From Candidatus Pacearchaeota archaeon (GTDB taxonomy: Archaea > Nanobdellota > Nanobdellia > Pacearchaeales > GW2011-AR1): a DNA stretch of 64,000 bases. Below are positions 13,898-60,168 of the stretch, one piece after another. The stretch is from positions 33,982 through 97,981 of the forward strand of contig JAGVWT010000003.1 of assembly GCA_018304175.1 (NCBI GenBank). Reading direction: 5' to 3'. The notes beneath the pieces are model-generated. The model did not search any database and was not told where the DNA came from. It saw only the letters and a list, made by a program, of their open reading frames with translations. Each line of letters opens with the position of its first letter. Positions within the stretch are counted from its first letter, which is position 1. Both the position numbers and the translations under genes were made by a program.

Positions 13898-13937
13898 CTA
13901 AAAACCTTTAAATACGTTTTTCTTTTTCTCAAATCAT

Positions 13938-14030
13938 GTCCCGGTAGCTCAGCAGGTAGAGCACATGACTGTTAGAATTTTGAAAATTGCAGCGATCATG
14001 GGGTCGTAGGTTCGAGTCCTACCCGGGACG
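13938..14030 (+). tRNA. tRNA-Asn (anticodon GTT) with a 20-nt intron (13975-13994) at the canonical 37/38 position
   Basis: Manual fold: acceptor GTCCCGG/CCGGGAC, D-arm GCTC-AGCAGGTA-GAGC, anticodon stem CATGA/TCATG, loop CTGTTA|intron|A, T-arm GTAGG-TTCGAGT-CCTAC, discriminator G. No CCA is encoded. Confidence 0.7.
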
Positions 14031-14032
14031 TT

Positions 14033-47492: not shown

Positions 47493-47801
47493 ATTTAGTT
47501 CTTTAAGTATAGAAGTTGATTGCCTCGCTCCAAAGTCGCTCGGTTATTGATATAAATTGTTAATACAAAAAACAAACTTTTTCGTTAAAATTTCACATCA
47601 AACTTTCGCGATAGCGAACAATTAAAGTGAGCAACTTGTCGTGAACAGGTATTTTCATTTTCTAAAAATGGCCCCGATTACTCGCGACCCCGCTCGGATT
47701 TTTTATTTTTCGTTTCACGATTAATTTCCGCGAAATCGCTCGTGATTTGATACTGAAGTTCAAATCAACATTTGTAAATGCTGTTTAACAACAGCATGAA
47801 A

Positions 47802-47924
47802 TGGCCCCGATGGGATTTGAACCCACGACACCTGGATCTCTCCAACATTGTTTTTTTCGAACTTCCACGAATTAAAATTCGCGTTGTAAGAGTCCAGTGC
47901 TCTACCAGGCTGAGCTACGGAGCC
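47802..47924 (-). tRNA. tRNA-Lys (anticodon CTT) with a 49-nt intron (47838-47886) in the anticodon loop
   Basis: Manual fold of the reverse complement: acceptor GGCTCCG/CGGGGCC (one GU), D-arm GCTC-AGCCTGGTA-GAGC, anticodon stem CTGGA/TCCAG enclosing CTCTTA|49 nt|A, T-arm GTGGG-TTCAAAT-CCCAT, discriminator A. Confidence 0.6.
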
Positions 47925-48047
47925 TTTTCTGTTTTTGGCGATGTAGCGACTTGCGATTTCGTCGGAGGCAATTGGAAATCGCCTTTCCTAACGAAAAGGA
48001 AGGTGTGTGAGAGGAAACCTTGGTTTCCTTCATGAGCTACGGAGCCT
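47925..48047 (-). repeat. insert-like segment upstream of tRNA-Lys, bounded by 18-bp direct repeats of tRNA positions -4..+14; contains R1 hairpin copy C (47953-47982)
   Basis: aaaaggctccgtagctca (minus-strand reading) occurs at the real tRNA 5' end and again about 105 bp upstream (plus strand 48030-48047). The interior shares tga-Rgg-hairpin, gtcgctaca and acag(aaaa) with the tRNA-Ile insert. Confidence 0.6.
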
Positions 48048-48387: not shown

Positions 48388-48726
48388 CTAAACAAACTTC
48401 TTGAGTTTTTTCTCGAAGTCTTCTTCAGAAGAAGAACCTATAAACTGCTCTACTTTTTCTCCATTTTTGAACAATATGAAATTTGGAATTGAAACTATGT
48501 TGAATTTCTGAGCTAACTCCCCATGGTCTTCAATGTTGATCTTAGCGAATTTTATTTTTGCTTTGAATTTTTCCGAAAGCTCGTCTATTATTGGTTCCAT
48601 CATGATGCACGGCATGCACCAGTCGGCGTAGAAATCAATTAAAGATATACCTTCCTTAATAAAACTTGTAAATTCCTTTCCAGACAATTCAGGTACTTTG
48701 TCTTTGTTAGCCATTTTTAACTCCAT
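48388..48726 (-). CDS. trx: thioredoxin
   Basis: Active site WCMPC; about 110 aa. Confidence 0.85.
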   Translation of the reverse strand: MELKMANKDKVPELSGKEFTSFIKEGISLIDFYADWCMPCIMMEPIIDELSEKFKAKIKFAKINIEDHGELAQKFNIVSIPNFILFKNGEKVEQFIGSSSEEDFEKKLKKFV

Positions 48727-48770: not shown

Positions 48771-50705
48771 TTAATTATCTAAAGAACTATTAATATGGTG
48801 CAAGTGAGGAATCAACAAATCTGTCCATGTTTCTATTTCTGTGTTAGGGTATGTTTCAATTATGTTGTCTATGTGAATCATTCCTGCTTCTTTTATAGAA
48901 GCTTCTTTTGGTTTGACATAGCCGTCTGTTTCCATTGCATAAATTAACCCAAAATGAACTGCGTCTACGGGCTTTTTCGTTGAGAATAAAGTTCCAATAA
49001 ATTTTGGCTTTGTATAATTCCCATCAACAGTAACTTCTTCAAATAATTCTCTTTCAAGACAATTTTTTATGTAATCAGGACCATCGTTTTTTCTTATGTG
49101 GCCCCCTAATCCTAGAGATAATTTTCCGAAAAGTCTTCTGTCTCCATATTCAACCGGGTCTGATGACCTTACATAAGCAAAAACTTTTTCATTTGGTCCA
49201 AAGAATAAAACATAAGGAATCGGTTGCAAAACTAATGTGTCATCTTCACATTCATATCTTGATTTGAAAAATCCTCTTTTTTGGATATCTATGATTAATT
49301 CTTTTGATAAATCGCCTTCAATAAATTCAAATCCTTCGCGTTTTTTTCTATGGTTCAAAAGAATTTTTGCATCTTGAACGATAACAAGTGTGTCAAGTTT
49401 AGAATAATTTTTTGCGGCCATTGCAAAATCAAAGGGTTTGAAATGTTTTGAAATTTTTGGGCCTGTCTGGCCTTGATAATTTGATGCTGCATCTTTGTCA
49501 CCATATAGTTTGTCAGGGATTTCAGAAGTTCTGAATAAATCCATTTTACTTAAAGGCATCCCGTTTTCCAGGACAACTTCTGTTTCTTCATCAGGGCTTA
49601 TCTCAAAAACCATGTCTCCATTAAATCCTGGGTCTACAAATCCAGCGTCGTGAGATCTTCCTTCAATACCTTCATGAGAGTGCCTTCTTAATTCGGCAGC
49701 AAGGTGTGGTGGAATCGAAAGGACTTCTCTTGAAGGAAATAAGTAATGTTCCCCTCTTTTAACAATAACTTGCTTCTCAGAAGATAAAGATGAAGGTATT
49801 ATAGCCTCGAAATATCTTTCAGGATCATTTTCTCCTTTTTTTGATAAGTCTATTGGAACAGGATTATTTCTTGCGCGCAGTCCTACTATGCCATGAGTTG
49901 AAGCTCCTTCTAAATCAAGAGTTATCTGAAGTCCGTCGTTGACCATACTTCCAATTAAAGGAAGAGATTCTGCTTTTTTTCCTTTGGAGTTTTTGCTAAA
50001 CAAAATTGGATTTTTTTCGTATTCTTCCCTTATTTCTTTAGAACTTAGTTTAGCATCTCCTAAAAAAAATCTCAACTGATTAAGAGTCAAATCTGGACGA
50101 ATAATTAAATTAAAAGGAAGTGATTGAATCAGTAACCACATATCTCTTAATTGAGTTACCTTTTGATTATCATTTCCGCTAACTTCATCGAATGAAGAAT
50201 TGTAATCGCACAAGAAACGTGTTTTTGGGAAAACTCTTCCTGTGCTGCTTTTTGGTGAAGACCTTACAAAGTCAAAATGTTCTTCGACATGCGACAAGTC
50301 AATTTGCTCGTTCAAACGCACTAAAGCAGTGTTGCCTCTTTTTATTTCAAAACCATCTGATATATCAAACCTCATTCTGTTTCCGGCAGGCAATTGTAAA
50401 AGGGTCCTGTAAATACTCTCATTCTTTCTTGGTCTGAATAAACCTCCTCTTTCAGAGTCGATAACAAATAATTCTTCGCCTAATGTCGGTTCAAAAGAAC
50501 CTGGTTGAATCCTGCTTTCCAAGTTACCATCTTTAAACATCCCATTATCTTTAGTAGATAATGATTGATTTTTGACAATCAATGCTCCGTCATGAATAAG
50601 TTTCCTTATCTGCTGAGAGACCAAAGAATAACCTCTTTCTTTCATCCTTTTTTTTGTTTTGCATAGTTTATAATTATTATTGTAATAAAAATTATACTTC
50701 TCCAA
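48771..50705 (-). CDS. two-domain protein: N-terminal long-form dCTP-deaminase-like (dUTPase-fold, DCD family) domain fused to a C-terminal Nudix hydrolase domain
   Basis: N-terminus LVSQQIRKLIHDGALIV...IQPGSFEPTLGEE and HDAGFVDPGFNGDMVFE (dCTP deaminase/dUTPase signature). The C-terminus GLGGHIRKNDGPDYIKNCLERELFEEV fits the Nudix box. An alternative start MKERGY is at 50645. Confidence 0.55.
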   Translation of the reverse strand: MEKYNFYYNNNYKLCKTKKRMKERGYSLVSQQIRKLIHDGALIVKNQSLSTKDNGMFKDGNLESRIQPGSFEPTLGEELFVIDSERGGLFRPRKNESIYRTLLQLPAGNRMRFDISDGFEIKRGNTALVRLNEQIDLSHVEEHFDFVRSSPKSSTGRVFPKTRFLCDYNSSFDEVSGNDNQKVTQLRDMWLLIQSLPFNLIIRPDLTLNQLRFFLGDAKLSSKEIREEYEKNPILFSKNSKGKKAESLPLIGSMVNDGLQITLDLEGASTHGIVGLRARNNPVPIDLSKKGENDPERYFEAIIPSSLSSEKQVIVKRGEHYLFPSREVLSIPPHLAAELRRHSHEGIEGRSHDAGFVDPGFNGDMVFEISPDEETEVVLENGMPLSKMDLFRTSEIPDKLYGDKDAASNYQGQTGPKISKHFKPFDFAMAAKNYSKLDTLVIVQDAKILLNHRKKREGFEFIEGDLSKELIIDIQKRGFFKSRYECEDDTLVLQPIPYVLFFGPNEKVFAYVRSSDPVEYGDRRLFGKLSLGLGGHIRKNDGPDYIKNCLERELFEEVTVDGNYTKPKFIGTLFSTKKPVDAVHFGLIYAMETDGYVKPKEASIKEAGMIHIDNIIETYPNTEIETWTDLLIPHLHHINSSLDN

Positions 50706-50973
50706 CTAAAACAAAAATCAGTTTGTACAAAAACCAAAACAATATTACTAAATAAATCAGTGTTATGTTTATTCCTAAAATCATCAGGAAAATGTAAAAA
50801 GCGACGAGTATGTCAATTATACTCATCGGCTCTCCGAAAAACATTATTCCTTTTAACAAGAGGTAGAATATTGAAAAGAGCATAAGCTGTATTGGAAAAA
50901 TTGAGCTGAATTGTGCAAGACTTATTGTTACGAGAGTTAAAATATCAAGAACCATGAAAATCCAGATTAACAT
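50692..50973 (-). CDS. small membrane protein
   Basis: Three hydrophobic helices. Confidence 0.35.
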   Translation of the reverse strand: MLIWIFMVLDILTLVTISLAQFSSIFPIQLMLFSIFYLLLKGIMFFGEPMSIIDILVAFYIFLMILGINITLIYLVILFWFLYKLIFVLVGEV

Positions 50974-51252: not shown

Positions 51253-51807
51253 TCAATATTCAATACCTTTTCTTGCTAAAATTCCTGAATCGTAAGGGTG
51301 TTTGATTTTTTTTACTTCTGTTACAAGATGTGCTTTCTCGAAAATTTTTGGAAATGGTTCGTGACTTCCAGTTAAAATAAGTTCTTTTTTACTTGGTTTT
51401 GAATCAATTAATTCAATAACATCGCCTTCTGTTAACAGTCCGAGTTGTACAGCGTAAAGTATTTCGTCAGCGATTATTATGTCTCTATCCTCATCATTTA
51501 GGGATTCTTTGACATGATTCAATGCTTCTTTGCAGGATTTTATTTGATTTTCCGTCGGTTTTTCTATTACCCAGCCATCAATTCCAAAACGTTTGTATGT
51601 AAAATTCGGAAATTTTTTCAGTGCTTTTATTTCTCCAGGAATTTGCTCTTCCAAAGAATCCGCGCCGTTTTTTATGAACTGGACTAAATGGACGTGATAA
51701 TTATTTCCACAGGCTCTTAAAGCAGTGCCTAATGAACTTGTTGTCTTGCCTTTTCCATTTCCCCAAAATACCTGAACTAAACCGAGTTTTGATTTATCTG
51801 GATTCAT
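51253..51807 (-). CDS. cobA: cob(I)alamin adenosyltransferase (CobA/CobO/BtuR family)
   Basis: P-loop GNGKGKTT and VQFIKNG (QF.KG) motif; 184 aa. Confidence 0.65.
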   Translation of the reverse strand: MNPDKSKLGLVQVFWGNGKGKTTSSLGTALRACGNNYHVHLVQFIKNGADSLEEQIPGEIKALKKFPNFTYKRFGIDGWVIEKPTENQIKSCKEALNHVKESLNDEDRDIIIADEILYAVQLGLLTEGDVIELIDSKPSKKELILTGSHEPFPKIFEKAHLVTEVKKIKHPYDSGILARKGIEY

Positions 51808-51849: not shown

Positions 51850-54375
51850 TTAACTACACTTGCTATAACCACAATCGAAGCATGTAGGTTCTTCGCAGCC
51901 TGAAACCATGCCTACGTTTGCACTGAAACATTTTGGGCAATGAAGCTTATTGCCATTTTGATTTTCTTCACCAACATTATCTTTTTCTAAAACTTTTGCA
52001 TCAATACTCAAGTCAACTGTTTTTATCTTACCTGTTTTTATTAAATGTGTTCTTAACGCTACGGCGATTCCGTGGGATATAGAATCAATTCTTTTCTTTC
52101 CAAATCCGTAAGGCCTCTCCGATTTTATAGAGTTGAGATGTTTCAAAATTCTTATAGGGTCACCGCCAAGACCTAAATATTTAGAGAGAACAATTCCTAA
52201 AGCACTTGTTAATCCTGAAATTTCTGTTCCTATCGGGGTCATGCTTGTGAAGATTTTTGTAGGCCCTTCGTTGTCGTAATTAATATGAATATGTAATGGT
52301 CCTTGACCTGTTTCAACTCTGTAATAATCTGAATTTTCGTGCAATTTTTTCATTTCTCTTATCACAACTTTCCCTTCTGCATCTTTCTTTTCTTTTTTGT
52401 CGCTTATATTTAAAATTTGTAATTGCTTTGAACCATCACGATAAATTGTGACTCCTTTTGCGCCATTTTCGTAAGCAAGCATGTATACCTCTTCTACTTC
52501 TTTTTCTGTTGCAGAGTTTTTCATATTCACTGTTTTTGAAACAGCATTGTCTGTGTATTTCTGGAAAGCACATTGCATCATTACATGCTCTTTTGGAGTT
52601 AAGTCGTGAGAAGTTAAGAATAAATCTTGAATTTCTTTTGGAATTTCATTTATTCCCACAAGTGACTTGTGATTATCGTTAATTTTCTTGTATAATCCCT
52701 CTTTTTTCAAACCAAAATAATCGTTTTCTATAGCTATTTTTTCAAATAAAGGATTTATCTCGAGGAAAGTGTCTTTTTCCAGGGGTTTTTCTCCTTTTTT
52801 TAAAGCATCAATTCCTGCGGCGTTGTAACGCACATATGCTACTGCGAAAAATGGTTCTATTCCAGCTCCTTGTAAACCTGCAGCTAATCCAATTGTTCCT
52901 GTTGGTGCTATTGTTGTGCGAGCAGAGTGTCTTGGAGAATATTCCTGTCCTCGGAAGTAAGAGCTGTTTTTATCGAAGATTGAACCCTTCCATGCAGGAA
53001 AAATTCCTCTCTTTTCTGCTAACTCTTCAGAAGCTTTCAAACATGAAACATTTATGAATTTCATCACTTCTTCTGCTTTTTTTAATGCATCGTGAGAATT
53101 GTATGGAATTCCTAACATAACAAGAGCTTCAGCCCAGCCCATAATACCTAATCCAATTCTTCTTGTTTTTTTCGCCATTTCTTCTATTTCTGAAATTGGA
53201 TAGTTGTTTATGTCTATAACATTGTCTAAGAAATGAGTGCATGTGTAAACACATTCTCTTAATTTTTCATAATCAAAATCCGCTTGATTTGTAAAAGATT
53301 CTTTCACGAATTTTGCAAGGTTTATTGAACCAAGATTGCATGGCTCGTAAGGCAGCAAAGGTTGTTCACCACAAGGGTTTGTTGATTCAATTTGTCCGAG
53401 ATGTGGGGTCGCGTTGCTTCCTGTGTTGTTTATCCTGTCAATTATTATGATTCCTGGGTCCCCTGTTTCCCAAGCACCCTTTATCAATTTTGTCCAGACA
53501 TCTTTTGCATTAAGCTTTCCGACGATTTGTTTGTTTCTTGGATTTATCAAGGGATAGTCTTCGTTGTTCTTCACTGCTTGCATGAAAGCATCATCTATTG
53601 TTACAGAGACGTTGAAATTTTCCATAACTCCAGGGGTTTTTTTCATGTCGATAAAATCAAGGATGTTTGGATGTGTGTAATGAAGAATCCCCATGTTTGC
53701 ACCTCTGCGAGTTCCGCCTTGTTTGACAACGTCTGTTGATTTGTCAAAAATTTGCATAAATGTTACTGGTCCTGATGAAATTCCACTAGTGCTTTTAACA
53801 AAGTCACCGCTTGGCCTTAATCTTGAGAAACTAAAACCTGTTCCGCCTCCGCTTTGATGAATCAGAGCCATGTTTTTAACACTTGTGTAAATTCCGTCGA
53901 TTGAGTCATCAACAGGGAGAACATAGCAAGCGCTTAACTGCTGCAAGTCCCTGCTGGCGTTCATCAGTGTCGGAGAATTTGGGAGAAATTTGAAGTTTGA
54001 AAGCAAGTCGTAAAATTTTCCTTCTGTGTCAGAAATAATCTCGGGATTTTTTGCATTTATATCTTCTAAATTTTCGAGGAACCTTCCAAAATTTTTGTGT
54101 CTATCTTCGCTTTTTACAAGCCCATGGTGTAGTAGAAACATCTTCGCTATTTTTCCTTTTGAACTGTACTCAACAATTCTTACATTCACACCATCAAAAA
54201 TTTCTTCTGTTGAAACTTTGTCTGAATGCAAAATATCCGAGAGTGCAATGTTGTGACAAACATTTCTCAGCCAGTGTTCAACTGTTGGCGAGTTCCTGAG
54301 GTATTTGTCTTTTATTACTTTAATCTGATTTATCGTTAAATTAAGTTTTGTAAGTTGTTTCAGTTCTGTTTCCAT
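51850..54375 (-). CDS. nrdJ: adenosylcobalamin-dependent ribonucleotide reductase (class II, NrdJ) with a C-terminal zinc ribbon
   Basis: Ten-stranded barrel RNR core with active-site Cys/Asn/Glu region (NPCGEQPL), C-terminal CPKC...CFDCG; 841 aa. Confidence 0.8.
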   Translation of the reverse strand: METELKQLTKLNLTINQIKVIKDKYLRNSPTVEHWLRNVCHNIALSDILHSDKVSTEEIFDGVNVRIVEYSSKGKIAKMFLLHHGLVKSEDRHKNFGRFLENLEDINAKNPEIISDTEGKFYDLLSNFKFLPNSPTLMNASRDLQQLSACYVLPVDDSIDGIYTSVKNMALIHQSGGGTGFSFSRLRPSGDFVKSTSGISSGPVTFMQIFDKSTDVVKQGGTRRGANMGILHYTHPNILDFIDMKKTPGVMENFNVSVTIDDAFMQAVKNNEDYPLINPRNKQIVGKLNAKDVWTKLIKGAWETGDPGIIIIDRINNTGSNATPHLGQIESTNPCGEQPLLPYEPCNLGSINLAKFVKESFTNQADFDYEKLRECVYTCTHFLDNVIDINNYPISEIEEMAKKTRRIGLGIMGWAEALVMLGIPYNSHDALKKAEEVMKFINVSCLKASEELAEKRGIFPAWKGSIFDKNSSYFRGQEYSPRHSARTTIAPTGTIGLAAGLQGAGIEPFFAVAYVRYNAAGIDALKKGEKPLEKDTFLEINPLFEKIAIENDYFGLKKEGLYKKINDNHKSLVGINEIPKEIQDLFLTSHDLTPKEHVMMQCAFQKYTDNAVSKTVNMKNSATEKEVEEVYMLAYENGAKGVTIYRDGSKQLQILNISDKKEKKDAEGKVVIREMKKLHENSDYYRVETGQGPLHIHINYDNEGPTKIFTSMTPIGTEISGLTSALGIVLSKYLGLGGDPIRILKHLNSIKSERPYGFGKKRIDSISHGIAVALRTHLIKTGKIKTVDLSIDAKVLEKDNVGEENQNGNKLHCPKCFSANVGMVSGCEEPTCFDCGYSKCS

Positions 54376-54376
54376 T

Positions 54377-54823
54377 TTATAGGTTTTTAAGTTCCTTCAT
54401 TTCTTTTTTGAAGTCGTTGACATCTTGGAAGTTTCTGTAGACAGATGCGAATCTTATGTATGCTACATTGTCGAGTTTTTTTATTTTTTTCATCGCTATT
54501 TCACCTATTGTCGAAGTTTTGACTTCTTTTTTGCCTTTTTTCCTTAATTGTTCTTCTATTTCGTTAACAATTTCTGTTATCTTTTCTTTGTTTACAGGGC
54601 GTTTTTCAAACGCCTTTTCAATGCCTCTCTCGAGTTTTTCTCTGCTGAACTTTTCCCTTGATTTGTCTTTTTTTATGACGTAAAAGTCACTGCTGTCAAT
54701 CCTTTCATACGTTGTGAATCTTTTTCTACACTTCAAACATTCTCTCCTCCTTCTTATTCCCTGAGAAGATTCTCTTTTGTTTGTTACCTTTATGCTTGTG
54801 CATGAACAGTATGGACATTTCAT
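54377..54823 (-). CDS. nrdR: transcriptional repressor NrdR (zinc ribbon plus ATP-cone)
   Basis: MKCPYCS...RRRECLKCRKRFTTYE and an ATP-cone. The likely start is MKCPYC at 54823 (the track's 54844 start adds 7 residues). Confidence 0.85.
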   Translation of the reverse strand: MKCPYCSCTSIKVTNKRESSQGIRRRRECLKCRKRFTTYERIDSSDFYVIKKDKSREKFSREKLERGIEKAFEKRPVNKEKITEIVNEIEEQLRKKGKKEVKTSTIGEIAMKKIKKLDNVAYIRFASVYRNFQDVNDFKKEMKELKNL

Positions 54824-54838
54824 TATAATATTAAGGAC

Positions 54839-54885
54839 ATACAATATCTTGTATGCTTAACCTTCGCTTGTTACAATAAATTGTA
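54839..54885 (-). promoter_or_regulatory. two NrdR-box-like palindromes (atacaatatcttgtat and tacaataaattgta) centred 32 bp apart, just upstream of nrdR-nrdJ
   Basis: Each matches the NrdR-box consensus acacwAtATaTwgtgt at 12-13 of 16 positions. Spacing is three helical turns, as in bacterial nrd operators. Confidence 0.5.
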
Positions 54886-54967: not shown

Positions 54968-55786
54968 TTACCTAACTTTAACTTTTCTTATTTTACGCGC
55001 TTCATCAATGATTTTTTTTAACTGGCTTTCTGGGATTTTTGTTTTGACTTTCAATTCACCCATGCTGTGCTCAGAAAGATTTTCTACGAGAAAGATGCCT
55101 GCTTGAGTCAATTTCATTTTTGTGTTGTTGTCAATTGATTTTAGAATGGTAATTGGATAAAGTTTTTTTCTTTCTATCAACTCTCTCAGAGATTTTTTTC
55201 CTGGATAATTCCAAGAAGTAATTCTCATGTTTACTCTTTCTGCATAAATGACGGCTTTCTGCGAGAGTTTAGTGTTTGTTGCAATCCAAGGACGGTCAAA
55301 GTGTTTGCTTAAATCAAGAAATCTAGCGTAGACATAGAGGACGACTTTGAGATTTGTGTAAACTCCCGGCGAATTGTGGTATTTGCATTCAATCATGTAT
55401 CTATATTTCTTTCTTGCTATTATATCGACTTCGTGGCTTGTGATTCTTCCGCGTACATTTTGGCCGACTTCTGTTTTATAACCATAATTTTCAAGAACCT
55501 TTGCAAAAAATCTTTCAAACGGAAATCCGGTAGGACCAAGATTCATTATGGCGTTTTTCAAGTCATAAATTGAAGCGATTTCTGGTTTTTGACTTTTAAG
55601 AAGTTGCATCGCGGTGTCAAAAATTTCCCTCGTCGTTATGCCATCGTAAACTTTTCTCTCAACTTCGTTTACAATTTCATCAATAAGTTTATTAGAAGCC
55701 CCGGCACGGAATAATGTCCCCCTTATTTTATTCGGGTTAAATTCCTCTTTTTTTCCTGACGCTTTTATAACATAAACCATTTTCAT
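54968..55786 (-). CDS. ATP-cone domain fused to an Mrr-like (PD-(D/E)xK) restriction-endonuclease domain
   Basis: N-terminus VIKASGKKEEFNPNKIRGTLFRAG...ITTREIFD (ATP-cone). Middle FERFFAKVLENYGYKTEV...HEVDIIARKK..YMIECKYH (Mrr_cat core). Confidence 0.6.
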   Translation of the reverse strand: MKMVYVIKASGKKEEFNPNKIRGTLFRAGASNKLIDEIVNEVERKVYDGITTREIFDTAMQLLKSQKPEIASIYDLKNAIMNLGPTGFPFERFFAKVLENYGYKTEVGQNVRGRITSHEVDIIARKKYRYMIECKYHNSPGVYTNLKVVLYVYARFLDLSKHFDRPWIATNTKLSQKAVIYAERVNMRITSWNYPGKKSLRELIERKKLYPITILKSIDNNTKMKLTQAGIFLVENLSEHSMGELKVKTKIPESQLKKIIDEARKIRKVKVR

Positions 55787-59459: not shown

Positions 59460-59855
59460 ATGAAAACAAAAACAGAAAAGGATTTTGCGAAAACTGTGCT
59501 TGATCTAACAAAAACAAAAGAAGAGAGAATTCAGGCTGCGTTTCATTTGGAGAATGCACTGAATGATGAATCTATAAGAAAACTTGGAAAAGCGCTTTTG
59601 ACAGAACCTTCACCAATTGTGAGGCATGAATTTGCGTTTTCCCTCGGTGAAAATGCTAAACCTAAAATAGCAAGTCCTTACTTAATGAAAGCTGTTGAAG
59701 AAGATGAAAATATTTTCGTGAGACATGAAGCGTTGCTCGCCTTAGCAACATTAAACGATAAGTCAGTAATTCCTTTTATAGAAAAATTTCTTAATTCTCC
59801 TGAAGAAGAAATCAGGGAAAGTGCTGAGATTGCACTTCAGAGGTTGAGAAATTAA
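59460..59855 (+). CDS. HEAT/PBS-lyase-repeat protein
   Basis: Repeated ...VRHEFAFSLGE... and ...VRHEALLALATL... HEAT-like units. The ATG at 59460 directly follows the fic stop. Confidence 0.55.
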   Translation: MKTKTEKDFAKTVLDLTKTKEERIQAAFHLENALNDESIRKLGKALLTEPSPIVRHEFAFSLGENAKPKIASPYLMKAVEEDENIFVRHEALLALATLNDKSVIPFIEKFLNSPEEEIRESAEIALQRLRN

Positions 59856-60168
59856 ATAAATTAGGCAATCGGAATTCCTTGAAATTTTTTTTTAATATTT
59901 CACCTATTGTCGAAGTTTTGACTTCTTTTTTGCCTTTTTTCCTAAATTGTTCTTCTATCGATTTATCTATCTTCTCTCTTACGATATTTCTTCCATATAA
60001 AGTTAATCCCTGAACCAAAGCACCATTGCCATTTCTCCTAATCTCGTTTATCGCTTCGTCCACATAATTATTAATTTCGTTTGCGTTCCAGTTTGGAAAT
60101 CCAGCCAATATATTACTCCTTAAATCATTTTCAGTCCAGTCAAAAGTATATGGTAAATCTCTTCCCAT
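59812..60168 (-). CDS. small chimeric ORF carrying a 62-bp near-identical copy of an nrdR ATP-cone segment; possibly a gene fragment
   Basis: Encodes IEEQFRKKGKKEVKTSTIGEI. DNA 59897-59958 is about 95% identical to 54498-54559 inside nrdR. Confidence 0.4.
   Translation of the reverse strand: MGRDLPYTFDWTENDLRSNILAGFPNWNANEINNYVDEAINEIRRNGNGALVQGLTLYGRNIVREKIDKSIEEQFRKKGKKEVKTSTIGEILKKNFKEFRLPNLFNFSTSEVQSQHFP

What the first reader, a model, noticed from the sequence alone, without database searches (positions are those of the whole stretch)
48771..50705. Fusion of a long-form dCTP-deaminase-like (dUTPase-fold) domain with a Nudix hydrolase domain
The N-terminal roughly 430 aa carry the DCD-family N-terminus (IRKLIHDGALIV...IQPGSFEPTLGEE) and the dUTPase-fold signature AGFVDPGFNGDMVFE. 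The C-terminal roughly 200 aa contain a good Nudix box GLGGHIRKNDGPDYIKNCLERELFEE. I am not aware of this domain combination being characterised. In context (thioredoxin, class II RNR, NrdR and CobA within 6 kb) it could be a bifunctional enzyme converting dCTP to dUTP and then dUMP. The Nudix domain would replace a canonical dUTPase and supply the thymidylate pathway while sanitising dUTP. A nucleotide-depletion role cannot be excluded.
Basis: partly seen in the sequence, partly recalled or inferred. Interest (0 to 1): 0.55.

Follow-up and report, generated by a model that had tools for sequence, protein, structure and literature searches.

The report
dCTP deaminase fused to YmaB-type Nudix
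A small-genome (DPANN) archaeon encodes one protein that joins a two-lobed dCTP deaminase to a Nudix hydrolase of the little-studied YmaB/TM1382 type; it sits in the ribonucleotide-reductase gene cluster and most likely converts dCTP to dUMP for thymidine synthesis, an arrangement common in these archaea but never tested.

Summary
The gene lies on the minus strand, and its real start is probably the ATG at 50645, giving 624 aa rather than 644. It encodes a long-form dCTP deaminase (Pfam DCD_N and DCD_C; fold match to 2r9q, TM 0.9). This is fused to a C-terminal domain that misses the Pfam NUDIX threshold but is a clear homologue of TM1382 (3e57) and B. subtilis YmaB.

Both halves keep their catalytic residues across 100 homologues. 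These are KSSxGR, AGFxD…E with the deaminating Glu, and a variant Nudix box GGH-x4-D-x10-RExxEE.

The fusion is not rare. There are more than 100 protein clusters and 47 species-level Woesearchaeota, Pacearchaeota and Nanoarchaeota genomes. In 9 of 23 well-flanked loci it lies within 5 kb of a class II or class III ribonucleotide reductase, often with NrdR and thioredoxin. It gives no defence-system hit.

The same Nudix type is also found fused to unrelated zinc dCMP deaminases (in both orders), to a P-loop kinase, and in DCD–Nudix–NDK triple fusions.

Best reading: housekeeping dCTP→dUTP→dUMP+PPi. No biochemistry exists, and I could not check genome-wide absence of dut. It is a new variant of a known kind, of moderate interest.

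The parts
48771..50645 (-). Gene for the 624-aa DCD–Nudix fusion protein, stop codon included. The ORF extends to a TTG at 50705, but the ATG at 50645 is the likely start.
   Evidence: ORF listing. 624-aa gene calls on identical contigs L001 and L003. Homologue N-termini. AlphaFold2 model with pLDDT 94.6 and pTM 0.90.
49956..50645 (-). N-terminal lobe of the long-form dCTP deaminase (dUTPase-like beta barrel). It supplies the phosphate-binding motif but has no catalytic Glu (WLLIQSLP).
   Evidence: Pfam DCD_N PF06559 at residues 61-216 of the 644-aa ORF. Alignment to 2r9q. Conservation analysis.
50235..50252 (-). Motif KSSTGR, equivalent to the 'KSSLGR' Ser/Arg motif of short dCTP deaminases (M. 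tuberculosis S102 and R106).
   Evidence: K, S, G and R are invariant in 100/100 fusion homologues. Coordinates checked.
49440..49949 (-). C-terminal lobe of the long-form dCTP deaminase. It carries the catalytic Asp and Glu.
   Evidence: Pfam DCD_C PF22569 at 253-422 and PF22769. phmmer to M. tuberculosis DCD-DUT 2qxx, E 6e-12.
49602..49646 (-). Motif AGFVDPGFNGDMVFE. D338 corresponds to M. tuberculosis D119. E348 corresponds to M. tuberculosis E129 and E. coli E138, the deamination glutamate.
   Evidence: Residue-by-residue alignment with 2qxx. A, G, D and E are 98-99% conserved.
49437..49517 (-). C-terminal arm of the deaminase (PDKLYG…SNYQGQTGPKISKHFK), the lid-like segment of DCD/dUTPase enzymes. 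It runs directly into the Nudix domain.
   Evidence: Y381, Y390 and Q393 are invariant and G382 and G395 are 97% conserved. It aligns to the C-terminal YG…KYQGQRGP of 2qxx.
48774..49433 (-). YmaB/TM1382-type (COG4112-like) Nudix-fold domain, about 220 aa.
   Evidence: 3e57 phmmer E 9e-13. Foldseek 3e57 TM 0.85. BLASTP to YmaB cluster representative P0396, 2e-14. 2825 representative relatives, mostly about 200-aa standalone proteins. phrog_8902, 5e-24.
49035..49112 (-). Variant Nudix box GLGGHIRKNDGPDYIKNCLERELFEE (G-x5-D-x10-RE-x2-EE).
   Evidence: G512, G514, H516 and R532 are invariant. G515, D521, E533 and E537 are at 98-99% and E536 at 92% in 100 homologues. The same variant box occurs in YmaB, TM1382 and DPANN standalone members.
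48388..48726 (-). Thioredoxin gene, 44 bp downstream on the same strand.
   Evidence: Pfam Thioredoxin on the called gene. Same position in L004 and L005.
50692..50973 (-). Small predicted membrane protein (93 aa) immediately upstream. No known family.
   Evidence: ORF listing. Homologues at the same position in 4 related loci (cluster 6). No Pfam hit.
51253..51807 (-). Corrinoid adenosyltransferase (CobA/CobO/BtuR). It supplies the adenosylcobalamin cofactor of the class II RNR.
   Evidence: Pfam PF02572.
51850..54375 (-). Class II (B12-dependent) ribonucleotide reductase.
   Evidence: Pfam Ribonuc_red_lgN, Ribonuc_red_lgC and TSCPD.
54377..54844 (-). NrdR-type regulator (zinc ribbon plus ATP-cone). 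It is called as 148 aa on identical contigs.
   Evidence: Pfam PF22811 and PF03477.

Best explanation
The gene encodes a housekeeping, two-active-site enzyme of pyrimidine deoxynucleotide metabolism.

The N-terminal 400 residues form a 'long-form' dCTP deaminase. This is two dUTPase-like lobes in one chain that together build a single composite active site. The N lobe gives the Ser/Arg phosphate-binding motif. The C lobe gives the Asp, the deaminating Glu and the closing C-terminal arm. This part converts dCTP to dUTP.

The C-terminal YmaB/TM1382-type Nudix domain is tethered directly to that closing arm. It then hydrolyses dUTP to dUMP and pyrophosphate, and possibly hydrolyses other pyrimidine dNTPs as well.

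The net reaction, dCTP → dUMP + NH3 + PPi, is the one that single-domain bifunctional DCD-DUT enzymes perform in other archaea. It feeds thymidylate synthesis from the dCTP made by the neighbouring ribonucleotide reductase and keeps dUTP low.

Shown here: domain identities, fold, conservation of catalytic residues, and genomic linkage. Inferred: the substrates, the order of the two steps, any channelling, and the single-site architecture of the deaminase.
For: (1) Domain identity. Pfam DCD_N, DCD_C and DCD all score above their cut-offs. Foldseek to A. tumefaciens long DCD 2r9q gives TM 0.89-0.91, followed by M. tuberculosis, B. halodurans, E. coli and M. jannaschii DCDs. The C-domain matches TM1382 and YmaB.

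(2) Catalytic competence. K132, S133, G136 and R137 are present in 100/100 homologues. A334, G335, D338 and E348 are present in 98-99/100, and E348 aligns to the deamination Glu of M. tuberculosis (E129). The Nudix residues G512, G514, H516 and R532 are invariant, with G515, D521, E533 and E537 at 98-99% and E536 at 92%.

(3) Rigid two-domain model with pLDDT 94.6 and pTM 0.90.

(4) Conserved dNTP context. In the window the order is NrdR, class II RNR, CobA, small membrane ORF, fusion, Trx. The same order occurs in L004. L005 has class III NrdD, NrdG, fusion, Trx. L007 has the fusion, kinase–dCMP deaminase, NrdR, RNR. Among 23 species-representative loci with at least 5 kb on both sides, an RNR lies within 5 kb in 9, and some nucleotide-metabolism gene lies within 5 kb in 12. 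NrdR and RNR are the most recurrent neighbours.

(5) Rosetta-stone fusions.
- DCD–Nudix–NDK triple fusions occur (P0027 and P0037), one of them next to a tandem deoxynucleoside kinase.
- The same Nudix type is fused to the unrelated zinc dCMP deaminase in both orders (P0212, P0412 and P0423; P0411 and P0413).
- It is also fused to a P-loop kinase (P0251 and P0414).

(6) The Nudix family itself is RNR-linked elsewhere.
- ymaB follows nrdEF in B. subtilis (PMC5960316 and PMC11904672).
- A homologue follows NrdE-NrdF-thioredoxin in phage SPbetaL1.
- A standalone DPANN homologue sits between the RNR and Trx.

(7) Recombinant YmaB is reported to have dNTP pyrophosphohydrolase activity, as preliminary data cited in PMC5960316.

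(8) No PADLOC defence model matches the protein.
Against: - No enzymology exists for this protein, for any long-form DCD (no literature found), or for the substrate preference of YmaB-type Nudix proteins.
- The closest short-form relatives of the deaminase part are themselves bifunctional DCD-DUT enzymes. The deaminase domain might therefore already release dUMP, which would make a dUTP-specific Nudix redundant.
- B. subtilis, which has YmaB, is known from the literature (my knowledge) to have canonical dUTPases. This argues against dUTP being the family's universal substrate.
- Several relatives also encode a kinase–dCMP deaminase, or a second kinase–long-DCD paralogue, right beside the fusion. 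A second route to dUMP exists in those genomes.
- Some DPANN lineages have the long DCD unfused with no adjacent Nudix.
- One lineage has a decayed Nudix box (L068).
- About half of the well-flanked loci show no nucleotide-metabolism neighbour.
- Presence or absence of dut, thyA and thyX in these genomes was not testable here.
Confidence: 0.5

Rival explanations
1. The deaminase part alone carries out dCTP→dUMP, as a bifunctional DCD-DUT like the M. jannaschii and M. tuberculosis enzymes. The Nudix domain is a broader dNTP pyrophosphohydrolase, as suggested for YmaB. It trims or balances ribonucleotide-reductase output, for example dCTP→dCMP feeding the neighbouring dCMP deaminase, or dATP→dAMP.
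For: The best short-form sequence and fold matches are bifunctional DCD-DUT enzymes. YmaB is described only as a general dNTP pyrophosphohydrolase and has been proposed to make dAMP (PMC5960316). Standalone YmaB-type Nudix genes sit next to an RNR without any DCD (B. subtilis). Fusion to dCMP deaminases fits a dCTP→dCMP→dUMP order equally well. Kinase–dCMP deaminase genes lie adjacent in at least 6 genomes.
Against: Mono- and bifunctional DCDs cannot be told apart from sequence. Repeated fusion of this Nudix with three different cytosine-nucleotide deaminase arrangements points to a pyrimidine-specific partnership rather than a general one. A dCTP-hydrolysing Nudix would compete with its own fused deaminase for substrate.
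Confidence: 0.3
2. Anti-virus nucleotide depletion. The protein destroys the dCTP pool on infection, like the bacterial dCTP-deaminase (AvcD-type) defence.
For: dCTP deaminases are used in defence. Neighbouring genes in some relatives (kinase–dCMP deaminase, kinase–long DCD) have a kinase domain that matches the PADLOC 'dCTPase' model. Phages carry YmaB-type Nudix genes.
Against: The protein itself has no PADLOC hit. It is a conserved gene in 47 species-level genomes at a syntenic core position next to RNR, thioredoxin and RNA polymerase genes. No toxin-antitoxin, integrase or other defence genes recur around it. It lacks the P-loop kinase domain of the defence enzymes.
Confidence: 0.04
3. The Nudix domain is non-catalytic. 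It would act as a nucleotide-sensing or structural module that regulates the deaminase, for example a dTTP or dUTP sensor.
For: It fails the Pfam NUDIX gathering threshold, and the box departs from the consensus (E→D, a 3-residue insertion, G→T). One lineage (L068) has lost the box entirely yet keeps the domain. The Nudix clan includes non-enzymatic members (PMC5389931).
Against: The metal-binding RE-xx-EE glutamates, the GGH motif and D521 are at 92-100% across 100 homologues and are shared with YmaB and TM1382. YmaB is reported to be catalytically active (PMC5960316).
Confidence: 0.06

Closest known systems
Bifunctional dCTP deaminase-dUTPase (DCD-DUT) of Methanocaldococcus jannaschii and Mycobacterium tuberculosis (PDB 1pkh, 2qxx)
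   Same: It shares the dUTPase-like fold and the same catalytic Ser/Arg, Asp and Glu residues and C-terminal arm. The predicted net reaction is the same, dCTP→dUMP+NH3+PPi, and so is the physiological role.
   Different: Those enzymes are homotrimers of about 190 aa that do both steps in one site. Here the deaminase is a duplicated two-lobe chain with one intact motif set. The second step is assigned to a separate, unrelated Nudix domain. TIGR02274 scores 64.9 bits against a cut-off of 92.8.
Long-form 2'-deoxycytidine 5'-triphosphate deaminase (Pfam PF06559/PF22569; A. tumefaciens structure 2r9q)
   Same: The N-terminal 400 residues have the same two-lobe architecture. Foldseek TM is 0.89-0.91 at 21-24% identity, and all three Pfam models match.
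   Different: The bacterial proteins are about 370 aa and standalone. The archaeal protein scores only 146.8 bits against NCBIfam NF005734 (cut-off 283). It lacks a Glu in the N lobe where 2r9q has LYLEIS. It carries the extra Nudix domain. The family has no published biochemistry that I could find.
YmaB (B. subtilis, last gene of nrdI-nrdE-nrdF-ymaB) and TM1382 (PDB 3e57): the 'predicted NUDIX family phosphoesterase' group
   Same: The C-domain is a member by sequence (E 9e-13 and 2e-14), by fold (TM 0.85) and by shared motifs (QxIPY, SxGxGGH, RExxEE, VHxG, ETW). It shows the same association with ribonucleotide-reductase and thioredoxin genes (PMC5960316).
   Different: Those are standalone proteins of about 200 aa. 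Here the domain is fused behind a deaminase. The function of YmaB and TM1382 is still undetermined (PMC5389931 and PMC5960316).
E. coli NudI (YfaO), a Nudix pyrimidine dNTP pyrophosphohydrolase with dUTP, dCTP and dTTP activity
   Same: It is a precedent that a Nudix enzyme can hydrolyse dUTP (listed with dUTP diphosphatase activity in PMC5389931). The Salmonella YfaO structure 3oga appears among the fold matches.
   Different: It has a canonical Nudix box, is about 140 aa, and has no family-specific N-terminal extension. It is not fused and is not a close relative (12% identity in the fold alignment).
AvcD / defensive dCTP deaminase (PADLOC 'dCTPase')
   Same: It also deaminates deoxycytidine nucleotides. 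Its P-loop kinase domain is homologous to kinase domains encoded next to the fusion in several DPANN genomes.
   Different: It has a different deaminase fold (zinc-dependent CDA type) and a kinase domain, and it occurs in defence-island contexts. The protein studied here gives no PADLOC hit.

Membership tests
Long-form dCTP deaminase (Pfam DCD_N PF06559 + DCD_C PF22569) | Both Pfam domain models matched above their gathering scores, in N-to-C order | tested here: met
   DCD_N scores 56.0 bits (GA 21.4), DCD_C 102.8 bits (GA 22) and DCD PF22769 79 bits (GA 27).
Long-form dCTP deaminase (Pfam DCD_N PF06559 + DCD_C PF22569) | Two-lobe fold as in the solved member 2r9q | tested here: met
   AF2 model with pLDDT 94.6. 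Foldseek to 2r9q chains gives E 3e-27, target TM 0.85-0.91 and rmsd 2.8-3.2 Å.
Long-form dCTP deaminase (Pfam DCD_N PF06559 + DCD_C PF22569) | NCBIfam equivalog NF005734 (PRK07559) score above its curated cut-off | tested here: not met
   146.8 bits against a cut-off of 283. It is a divergent archaeal branch, not an equivalog of the bacterial protein.
dCTP deaminase catalytic type (EC 3.5.4.13 or 3.5.4.30) | Catalytic residues: Ser and Arg of the KSSxGR motif, Asp of AGxIDPGF, the deaminating Glu, and the C-terminal YG…YQxQxGP arm | tested here: met
   Residue mapping onto M. tuberculosis 2qxx (S102, R106, D119, E129). Conservation is 98-100% in 100 homologues. The Ser/Arg motif comes from the N lobe and the Asp/Glu from the C lobe.
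dCTP deaminase catalytic type (EC 3.5.4.13 or 3.5.4.30) | Measured deamination of dCTP | not testable with these tools
Nudix hydrolase superfamily | Pfam NUDIX PF00293 above its gathering score | tested here: not met
   14.8 bits against 21.1 on the isolated C-domain. There was no hit on the full protein at E≤1.
Nudix hydrolase superfamily | Nudix box G-x5-E-x7-REUxEExGU | tested here: inconclusive
   The variant G515-x5-D521-x10-R532-E533-xx-E536-E537-V-T-V is present. The REUxEE core is kept. The first E is D, there is a 3-residue insertion, and the final G is T.
Nudix hydrolase superfamily | Nudix alpha/beta/alpha fold | tested here: met
   Foldseek matches 3e57 at TM 0.85. It also matches IPP isomerases, YfcD 2fkb, 3r03, NudC, YfaO 3oga and NUDT12, all at probability 1.00.
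YmaB/TM1382 subfamily ('predicted NUDIX family phosphoesterase') | Significant full-domain sequence similarity to TM1382 and to YmaB, with the family motifs | tested here: met
   phmmer to 3e57 gives E 9e-13 over 163 residues. BLASTP to P0396 gives E 2e-14. P0396 is the representative of the 90%-identity cluster that contains YMAB_BACSU. The motifs QPIPYV, SLGxGGH, RELxEE, VHxG and ETW are shared.
YmaB/TM1382 subfamily ('predicted NUDIX family phosphoesterase') | dNTP pyrophosphohydrolase activity | not testable with these tools
   Only preliminary activity of recombinant YmaB is cited (PMC5960316). TM1382 is listed as undetermined (PMC5389931).
Single-domain bifunctional DCD-DUT | Homotrimeric single-barrel protein of about 180-200 aa matching TIGR02274 | tested here: not met
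   TIGR02274 scores 64.9 bits against a cut-off of 92.8 and covers only the C lobe. The architecture is two lobes plus a Nudix domain.
Anti-phage dCTP deaminase (AvcD / PADLOC dCTPase) | Match to the PADLOC dCTPase model; P-loop kinase plus zinc-dependent deaminase domains | tested here: not met
   There are zero PADLOC families for the protein. No kinase or CDA-type domain was detected.

The most novel reading that the evidence does not exclude
The Nudix domain, tethered to the lid of the deaminase active site, forms with it a coupled two-site machine. This machine would be the only dUTP-clearing and dUMP-producing activity in these reduced DPANN genomes, with no canonical dut. By extension, the whole YmaB/TM1382 family would be RNR-coupled pyrimidine-dNTP pyrophosphatases. 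That would resolve what ymaB does in the B. subtilis nrd operon and give a function to the uncharacterised long-form DCD family.
Probability: 0.3. Interest if true: 0.6.

Novelty: new variant of a known kind. Interest (0 to 1): 0.5.

Why it matters
If the prediction holds, DPANN archaea reach the dCTP→dUMP conversion by bolting a Nudix pyrophosphatase onto a duplicated dCTP deaminase. Other archaea achieve this conversion in one active site. It would be a clean case of the same pathway step solved by a different protein architecture.

The fusion also acts as a 'Rosetta stone' for two families that have solved structures but no assigned function. These are the long-form DCD (2r9q) and the YmaB/TM1382 Nudix (3e57). 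It gives a concrete, testable alternative to the current speculation that YmaB makes dAMP for the B. subtilis reductase.

For DPANN metabolic reconstructions it fills the dUMP and dTTP supply step, which current annotation labels only as 'dCTP deaminase'.

Tried and rejected
- **Defence reading.** PADLOC gave no hit for the protein and the neighbourhoods are core-genome, so I rejected it as the main explanation.
- **Literature.** Searches for the fusion, for TM1382/COG4112/PF06559, for the PDB codes, and for PRK07559/PF22569/'long dCTP deaminase' returned nothing on this architecture or on long-form DCD biochemistry. A search on Woesearchaeota, thymidylate synthase and dUTP was uninformative.
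- **NCBIfam.** Only sub-threshold DCD equivalogs matched, and nothing matched the C-domain.
- **Split genes.** In DPANN genomes with an unfused long DCD I looked for an adjacent standalone YmaB-type Nudix and found none within 10 kb.
- **L093 unknown ORF.** I tested whether the 161-aa unknown ORF beside the standalone Nudix in L093 is a short DCD or dUTPase. It has no Pfam or PDB similarity.
- **Window search for pathway partners.** I looked for thyA, thyX, dut, NDK, dNK, SHMT and kinase–dCMP deaminase. The methods were tblastn with relatives' proteins, Pfam on 10 size-appropriate unannotated ORFs, and the precomputed Pfam tables for other parts of the window. None was found. The window is only 64 kb, so this says little about the genome.
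- **Genome-wide check.** A search for dut, dcd, thyA and thyX in a complete relative (CP061211.1) could not be done.
- **Model geometry.** Model coordinates are not exposed, so I could not measure the distance between the two active sites or the oligomer geometry.
Full report
**What is in the sequence**

A single uninterrupted ORF runs on the minus strand from 50705 (TTG) to 48771. The same gene is called as 624 aa on independent metagenome contigs that carry identical neighbouring proteins (L001 and L003). More than 100 homologues begin at the position of M21 (MxxxGYxLVSQQIR). The real start is therefore almost certainly the ATG at 50645. The window is a chromosomal piece of a low-GC (about 33%) DPANN archaeon. 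It encodes MCM, TBP, eIFs, FtsZ, archaeal ribosomal proteins and aminoacyl-tRNA synthetases.

**The deaminase part**

Residues 1-403 match all three Pfam models of the 'long-form' 2'-deoxycytidine 5'-triphosphate deaminase above their thresholds: DCD_N, DCD_C and DCD. They also match the only solved member, A. tumefaciens 2r9q (phmmer E 2.6e-26).

An AlphaFold2 model built on 97 homologues is very confident (pLDDT 94.6, pTM 0.90). It superposes on 2r9q with target TM 0.85-0.91. After 2r9q and the Nudix protein 3e57, the next matches are the short DCD and DCD-DUT enzymes of M. tuberculosis, B. halodurans, E. coli, M. jannaschii and S. tokodaii.

The residue-level alignment to M. tuberculosis DCD-DUT shows how the motifs are divided between the two lobes:
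- The C lobe keeps AGFVDPGF…VFE. D338 corresponds to D119, and E348 corresponds to E129, the deaminating glutamate (E138 in E. coli).
- The C lobe also keeps the C-terminal YG…YQGQxGP arm.
- The C lobe's own Ser/Arg motif has lost the arginine.
- The N lobe carries a perfect KSSTGR but has no glutamate in the equivalent strand (WLLIQSLP, where 2r9q has LYLEISP).

In 100 fusion proteins K132, S133, G136 and R137 are invariant, and A334, G335, D338 and E348 are 98-99% conserved. I infer one composite active site per chain, built from both lobes. This would be analogous in principle to monomeric two-domain dUTPases. The inference rests on motif distribution, not on a structure with ligand.

The protein is a divergent member. 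It scores only 146.8 bits against NCBI's equivalog for the bacterial enzyme (cut-off 283).

**The Nudix part**

Residues 405-624 do not reach the Pfam NUDIX threshold (14.8 against 21.1 bits). The 'box' is a variant: G515-x5-D521-x10-R532-E533-xx-E536-E537.

The domain is nevertheless clearly homologous to other Nudix-fold proteins:
- T. maritima TM1382, deposited as 'a putative Nudix hydrolase' (3e57): phmmer E 9e-13 and Foldseek TM 0.85. TM1382 is listed with undetermined function in the Nudix clan survey PMC5389931.
- Below 3e57, the fold search finds IPP isomerases, YfcD, NudC, YfaO and NUDT12.
- A full-library phmmer search with the domain alone finds 2825 representative relatives. About 50 are fusions of about 600 aa, and these are followed by many standalone proteins of about 200 aa. 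Sources call the standalone proteins 'predicted NUDIX family phosphoesterase'.

The link to YmaB was followed through phages. The domain hits the phage SP-15 Nudix gene, which is annotated as similar to BSU17400. A search from that protein reached the 90%-identity cluster that contains YMAB_BACSU. The representative of that cluster aligns to the window's C-domain with BLASTP E 2e-14 and shares the family motifs. BSU17400 is the gene after nrdE and nrdF (PMC11904672). ymaB is the last gene of the B. subtilis nrd operon, and its product has preliminary dNTP pyrophosphohydrolase activity (PMC5960316).

Within the fusion family G512, G514, H516 and R532 are invariant. G515, D521, E533 and E537 are at 98-99% and E536 at 92%. 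Further family-specific residues are also conserved: R463, E467, D469, Q474, Y478, R493, H564, G566, E605 and W607. This pattern argues for a catalytically active domain.

**Distribution**

The architecture is common, not unique. A word-indexed search returned more than 100 clusters of 590-650 aa proteins at 42-63% identity from Nanoarchaeota, Woesearchaeota and Pacearchaeota MAGs. NCBI names them '2'-deoxycytidine 5'-triphosphate deaminase'. JGI names some of them 'deoxycytidine triphosphate deaminase/predicted NUDIX family phosphoesterase'.

A scan of one genome per GTDB species found 480 relatives. Among the best 78 loci, 47 carry the full fusion. One of these is a complete 710-kb Pacearchaeota chromosome, CP061211.1.

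Unfused long DCDs also occur in some DPANN, in CPR bacteria and in Hyphomicrobium. One lineage keeps a C-terminal domain whose Nudix box has decayed (L068).

**Genomic context**

In the window the co-directional order is: ATP-cone–Mrr protein, NrdR, class II RNR, CobA, small membrane ORF, fusion, thioredoxin, small membrane ORF. The gaps are 1-280 bp.

Relatives show related arrangements:
- L004: NrdR, class II RNR, CobA, fusion, Trx.
- L005: class III NrdD, NrdG activase, fusion, Trx.
- L007: fusion, kinase–dCMP deaminase, NrdR, class II RNR.
- L009: a DCD–Nudix–NDK triple fusion beside a tandem deoxynucleoside kinase.

An unbiased clustering of all ORFs within 5 kb of the 47 fusions gave these recurrent neighbours:
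- NrdR and class II RNR, 11 loci each
- Thioredoxin, 6
- RNA polymerase B, 6
- Kinase–dCMP deaminase, 6
- CobA, 4
- The small membrane protein, 4
- Serine hydroxymethyltransferase, 2

Of the 23 loci with at least 5 kb on both sides, 9 have an RNR within 5 kb and 12 have at least one of RNR, NrdR, Trx or kinase–deaminase. For a single-copy gene in a genome of 0.7-1 Mb, chance adjacency within ±5 kb would be about 1%. This is my estimate, not a computed test. Linkage to two unrelated RNR classes points to a functional tie to dNTP synthesis rather than to inherited synteny alone. No mobile-element or defence genes recur, and PADLOC finds nothing in the protein.

**Other fusions of the same Nudix domain**

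YmaB-type Nudix domains, all with the GxGGH…RExxEE box, appear in several other architectures:
- Fused C-terminally to zinc-dependent dCMP/cytidine deaminase domains (P0212, P0412 and P0423).
- Fused N-terminally to such domains (P0411 and P0413).
- Fused to a P-loop kinase (P0251 and P0414).

The zinc deaminases are unrelated in fold to DCD. The same Nudix type has therefore been joined independently to two non-homologous cytosine-deoxynucleotide deaminases, in both orders, and to NDK.

Standalone members also sit beside RNR genes:
- ymaB in Bacillus (literature).
- A homologue three genes after NrdE (split), NrdF and thioredoxin in phage SPbetaL1.
- A Nanoarchaeia homologue between a class II RNR and Trx (L093).

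**Mechanism proposed**

The RNR supplies deoxycytidine nucleotides. NDK, which is fused or adjacent in some lineages, gives dCTP. The DCD site deaminates dCTP to dUTP. The Nudix domain starts immediately after the deaminase's closing C-terminal arm, and it hydrolyses dUTP to dUMP and PPi. The dUMP then goes to thymidylate synthase.

The shown steps are the folds, the residue conservation, the fusions and the linkage. The substrates, the order of the two reactions and any channelling are inferred. I put this at about 0.5.

The main rival, at about 0.3, is that the deaminase is itself bifunctional, like its nearest short relatives. The Nudix would then be a broader dNTP pyrophosphatase, for example dCTP→dCMP feeding the dCMP deaminase often encoded next door, or the dATP→dAMP role speculated for YmaB. 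Both readings give the same net chemistry for cytosine nucleotides. Defence by dCTP depletion and a purely regulatory Nudix are unlikely, at about 0.05 each.

**Limits**

There is no biochemistry. I found no thymidylate synthase, dUTPase, NDK or dCMP deaminase in the 64-kb window. I could not examine a whole genome. The claim that the Nudix 'replaces' dUTPase is therefore untested.

**Verdict**

The finding is real and correctly read in outline. It is a widespread, automatically annotated but unstudied variant of the dCTP→dUMP step. Its added value is that it suggests a function for the long-form DCD family and for the YmaB/TM1382 Nudix family. Interest is moderate.

Noticed in passing
window 47802-47924 (-): Rfam finds a 123-nt tRNA (56 bits), evidently intron-containing, that ARAGORN missed. 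The spurious ORF 47778-48035 (+) overlaps it.
   Followed up: partly
window 13937-14031 (+): A 93-95 nt tRNA is called 'tRNA-Stop (tta)' by ARAGORN, and Rfam confirms it as a tRNA (61.8 bits). It is probably an intron-containing archaeal tRNA whose anticodon was misread.
   Followed up: no
window 54968-55786 (-): The gene upstream of NrdR encodes an ATP-cone fused to an Mrr-type restriction-endonuclease domain and an AF1548-like C-terminal domain (Pfam). A nucleotide-sensing domain on a nuclease-fold protein at the head of the RNR cluster is unusual. It has only a marginal PADLOC hit (PDC-S02, E 0.002).
   Followed up: partly
window 50692-50973 (-): A 93-aa hydrophobic ORF lies directly upstream of the fusion gene. 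Homologues occupy the same position in 4 related genomes (cluster 6), and an 89-aa gene is called at that position in L004. It has no Pfam family. It is not called on L001 or L003.
   Followed up: partly
protein P0001 (source-derived model of window 48771-50645): The 'src' record for this gene is 451 aa and matches the window protein exactly apart from two changes. An internal 62-residue segment is spliced out, and the C-terminus is altered and truncated. This looks like a eukaryote-style intron-predicting gene call. The window may come from an assembly annotated as eukaryotic, in which case the archaeon would be a contaminant or associate.
   Followed up: no
L024 7998-9644 (+), directly upstream of that genome's DCD–Nudix gene: A second long-form DCD paralogue is fused to an N-terminal P-loop (AAA_18) kinase (Pfam). 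Its kinase part matches the PADLOC 'dCTPase' (AvcD-like) model (E 4e-17). This gives two different long-DCD fusions side by side after NrdR-NrdD-NrdG.
   Followed up: partly
L007 9890-10933; L022 12980-14080; L032, L060, L064, L071, L074: P-loop kinase–dCMP deaminase fusion genes lie next to the DCD–Nudix gene in at least 6 species genomes. They match the PADLOC dCTPase model at E 1.8e-34 over part of its length. They are AvcD-like in architecture but sit in a conserved housekeeping position.
   Followed up: partly
proteins P0027 and P0037 (L009 167-2461); L043: Triple fusions DCD–Nudix–NDK of about 765 aa occur. One lies beside a tandem deoxynucleoside kinase gene. In L043 an NDK homologue lies 20 bp downstream of the fusion.
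   Followed up: partly
L068 3609-5222 (+): A Woesearchaeota homologue of 537 aa keeps a C-terminal domain of the right size but has lost the GGH and RExxEE motifs. This looks like a decaying Nudix domain.
   Followed up: no
window 59872-59958 (-): A 29-residue stretch is 76% identical to NrdR residues 96-124, part of its ATP-cone (tblastn E 1e-7). It lies inside the unannotated 118-aa ORF 59812-60168, about 5 kb from nrdR.
   Followed up: no
L013 (Bacillus phage SPbetaL1) 1129-6609: All genes here are annotated 'hypothetical'. Pfam shows a split NrdE, NrdF and a thioredoxin-like protein, followed by two unknown ORFs and then a 204-aa YmaB-type Nudix homologue.
   Followed up: partly
L093 6657-7142 (-): A 161-aa ORF lies between the class II RNR and a standalone YmaB-type Nudix in a Nanoarchaeia genome. 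It has no Pfam or PDB similarity, and its function is unknown.
   Followed up: partly
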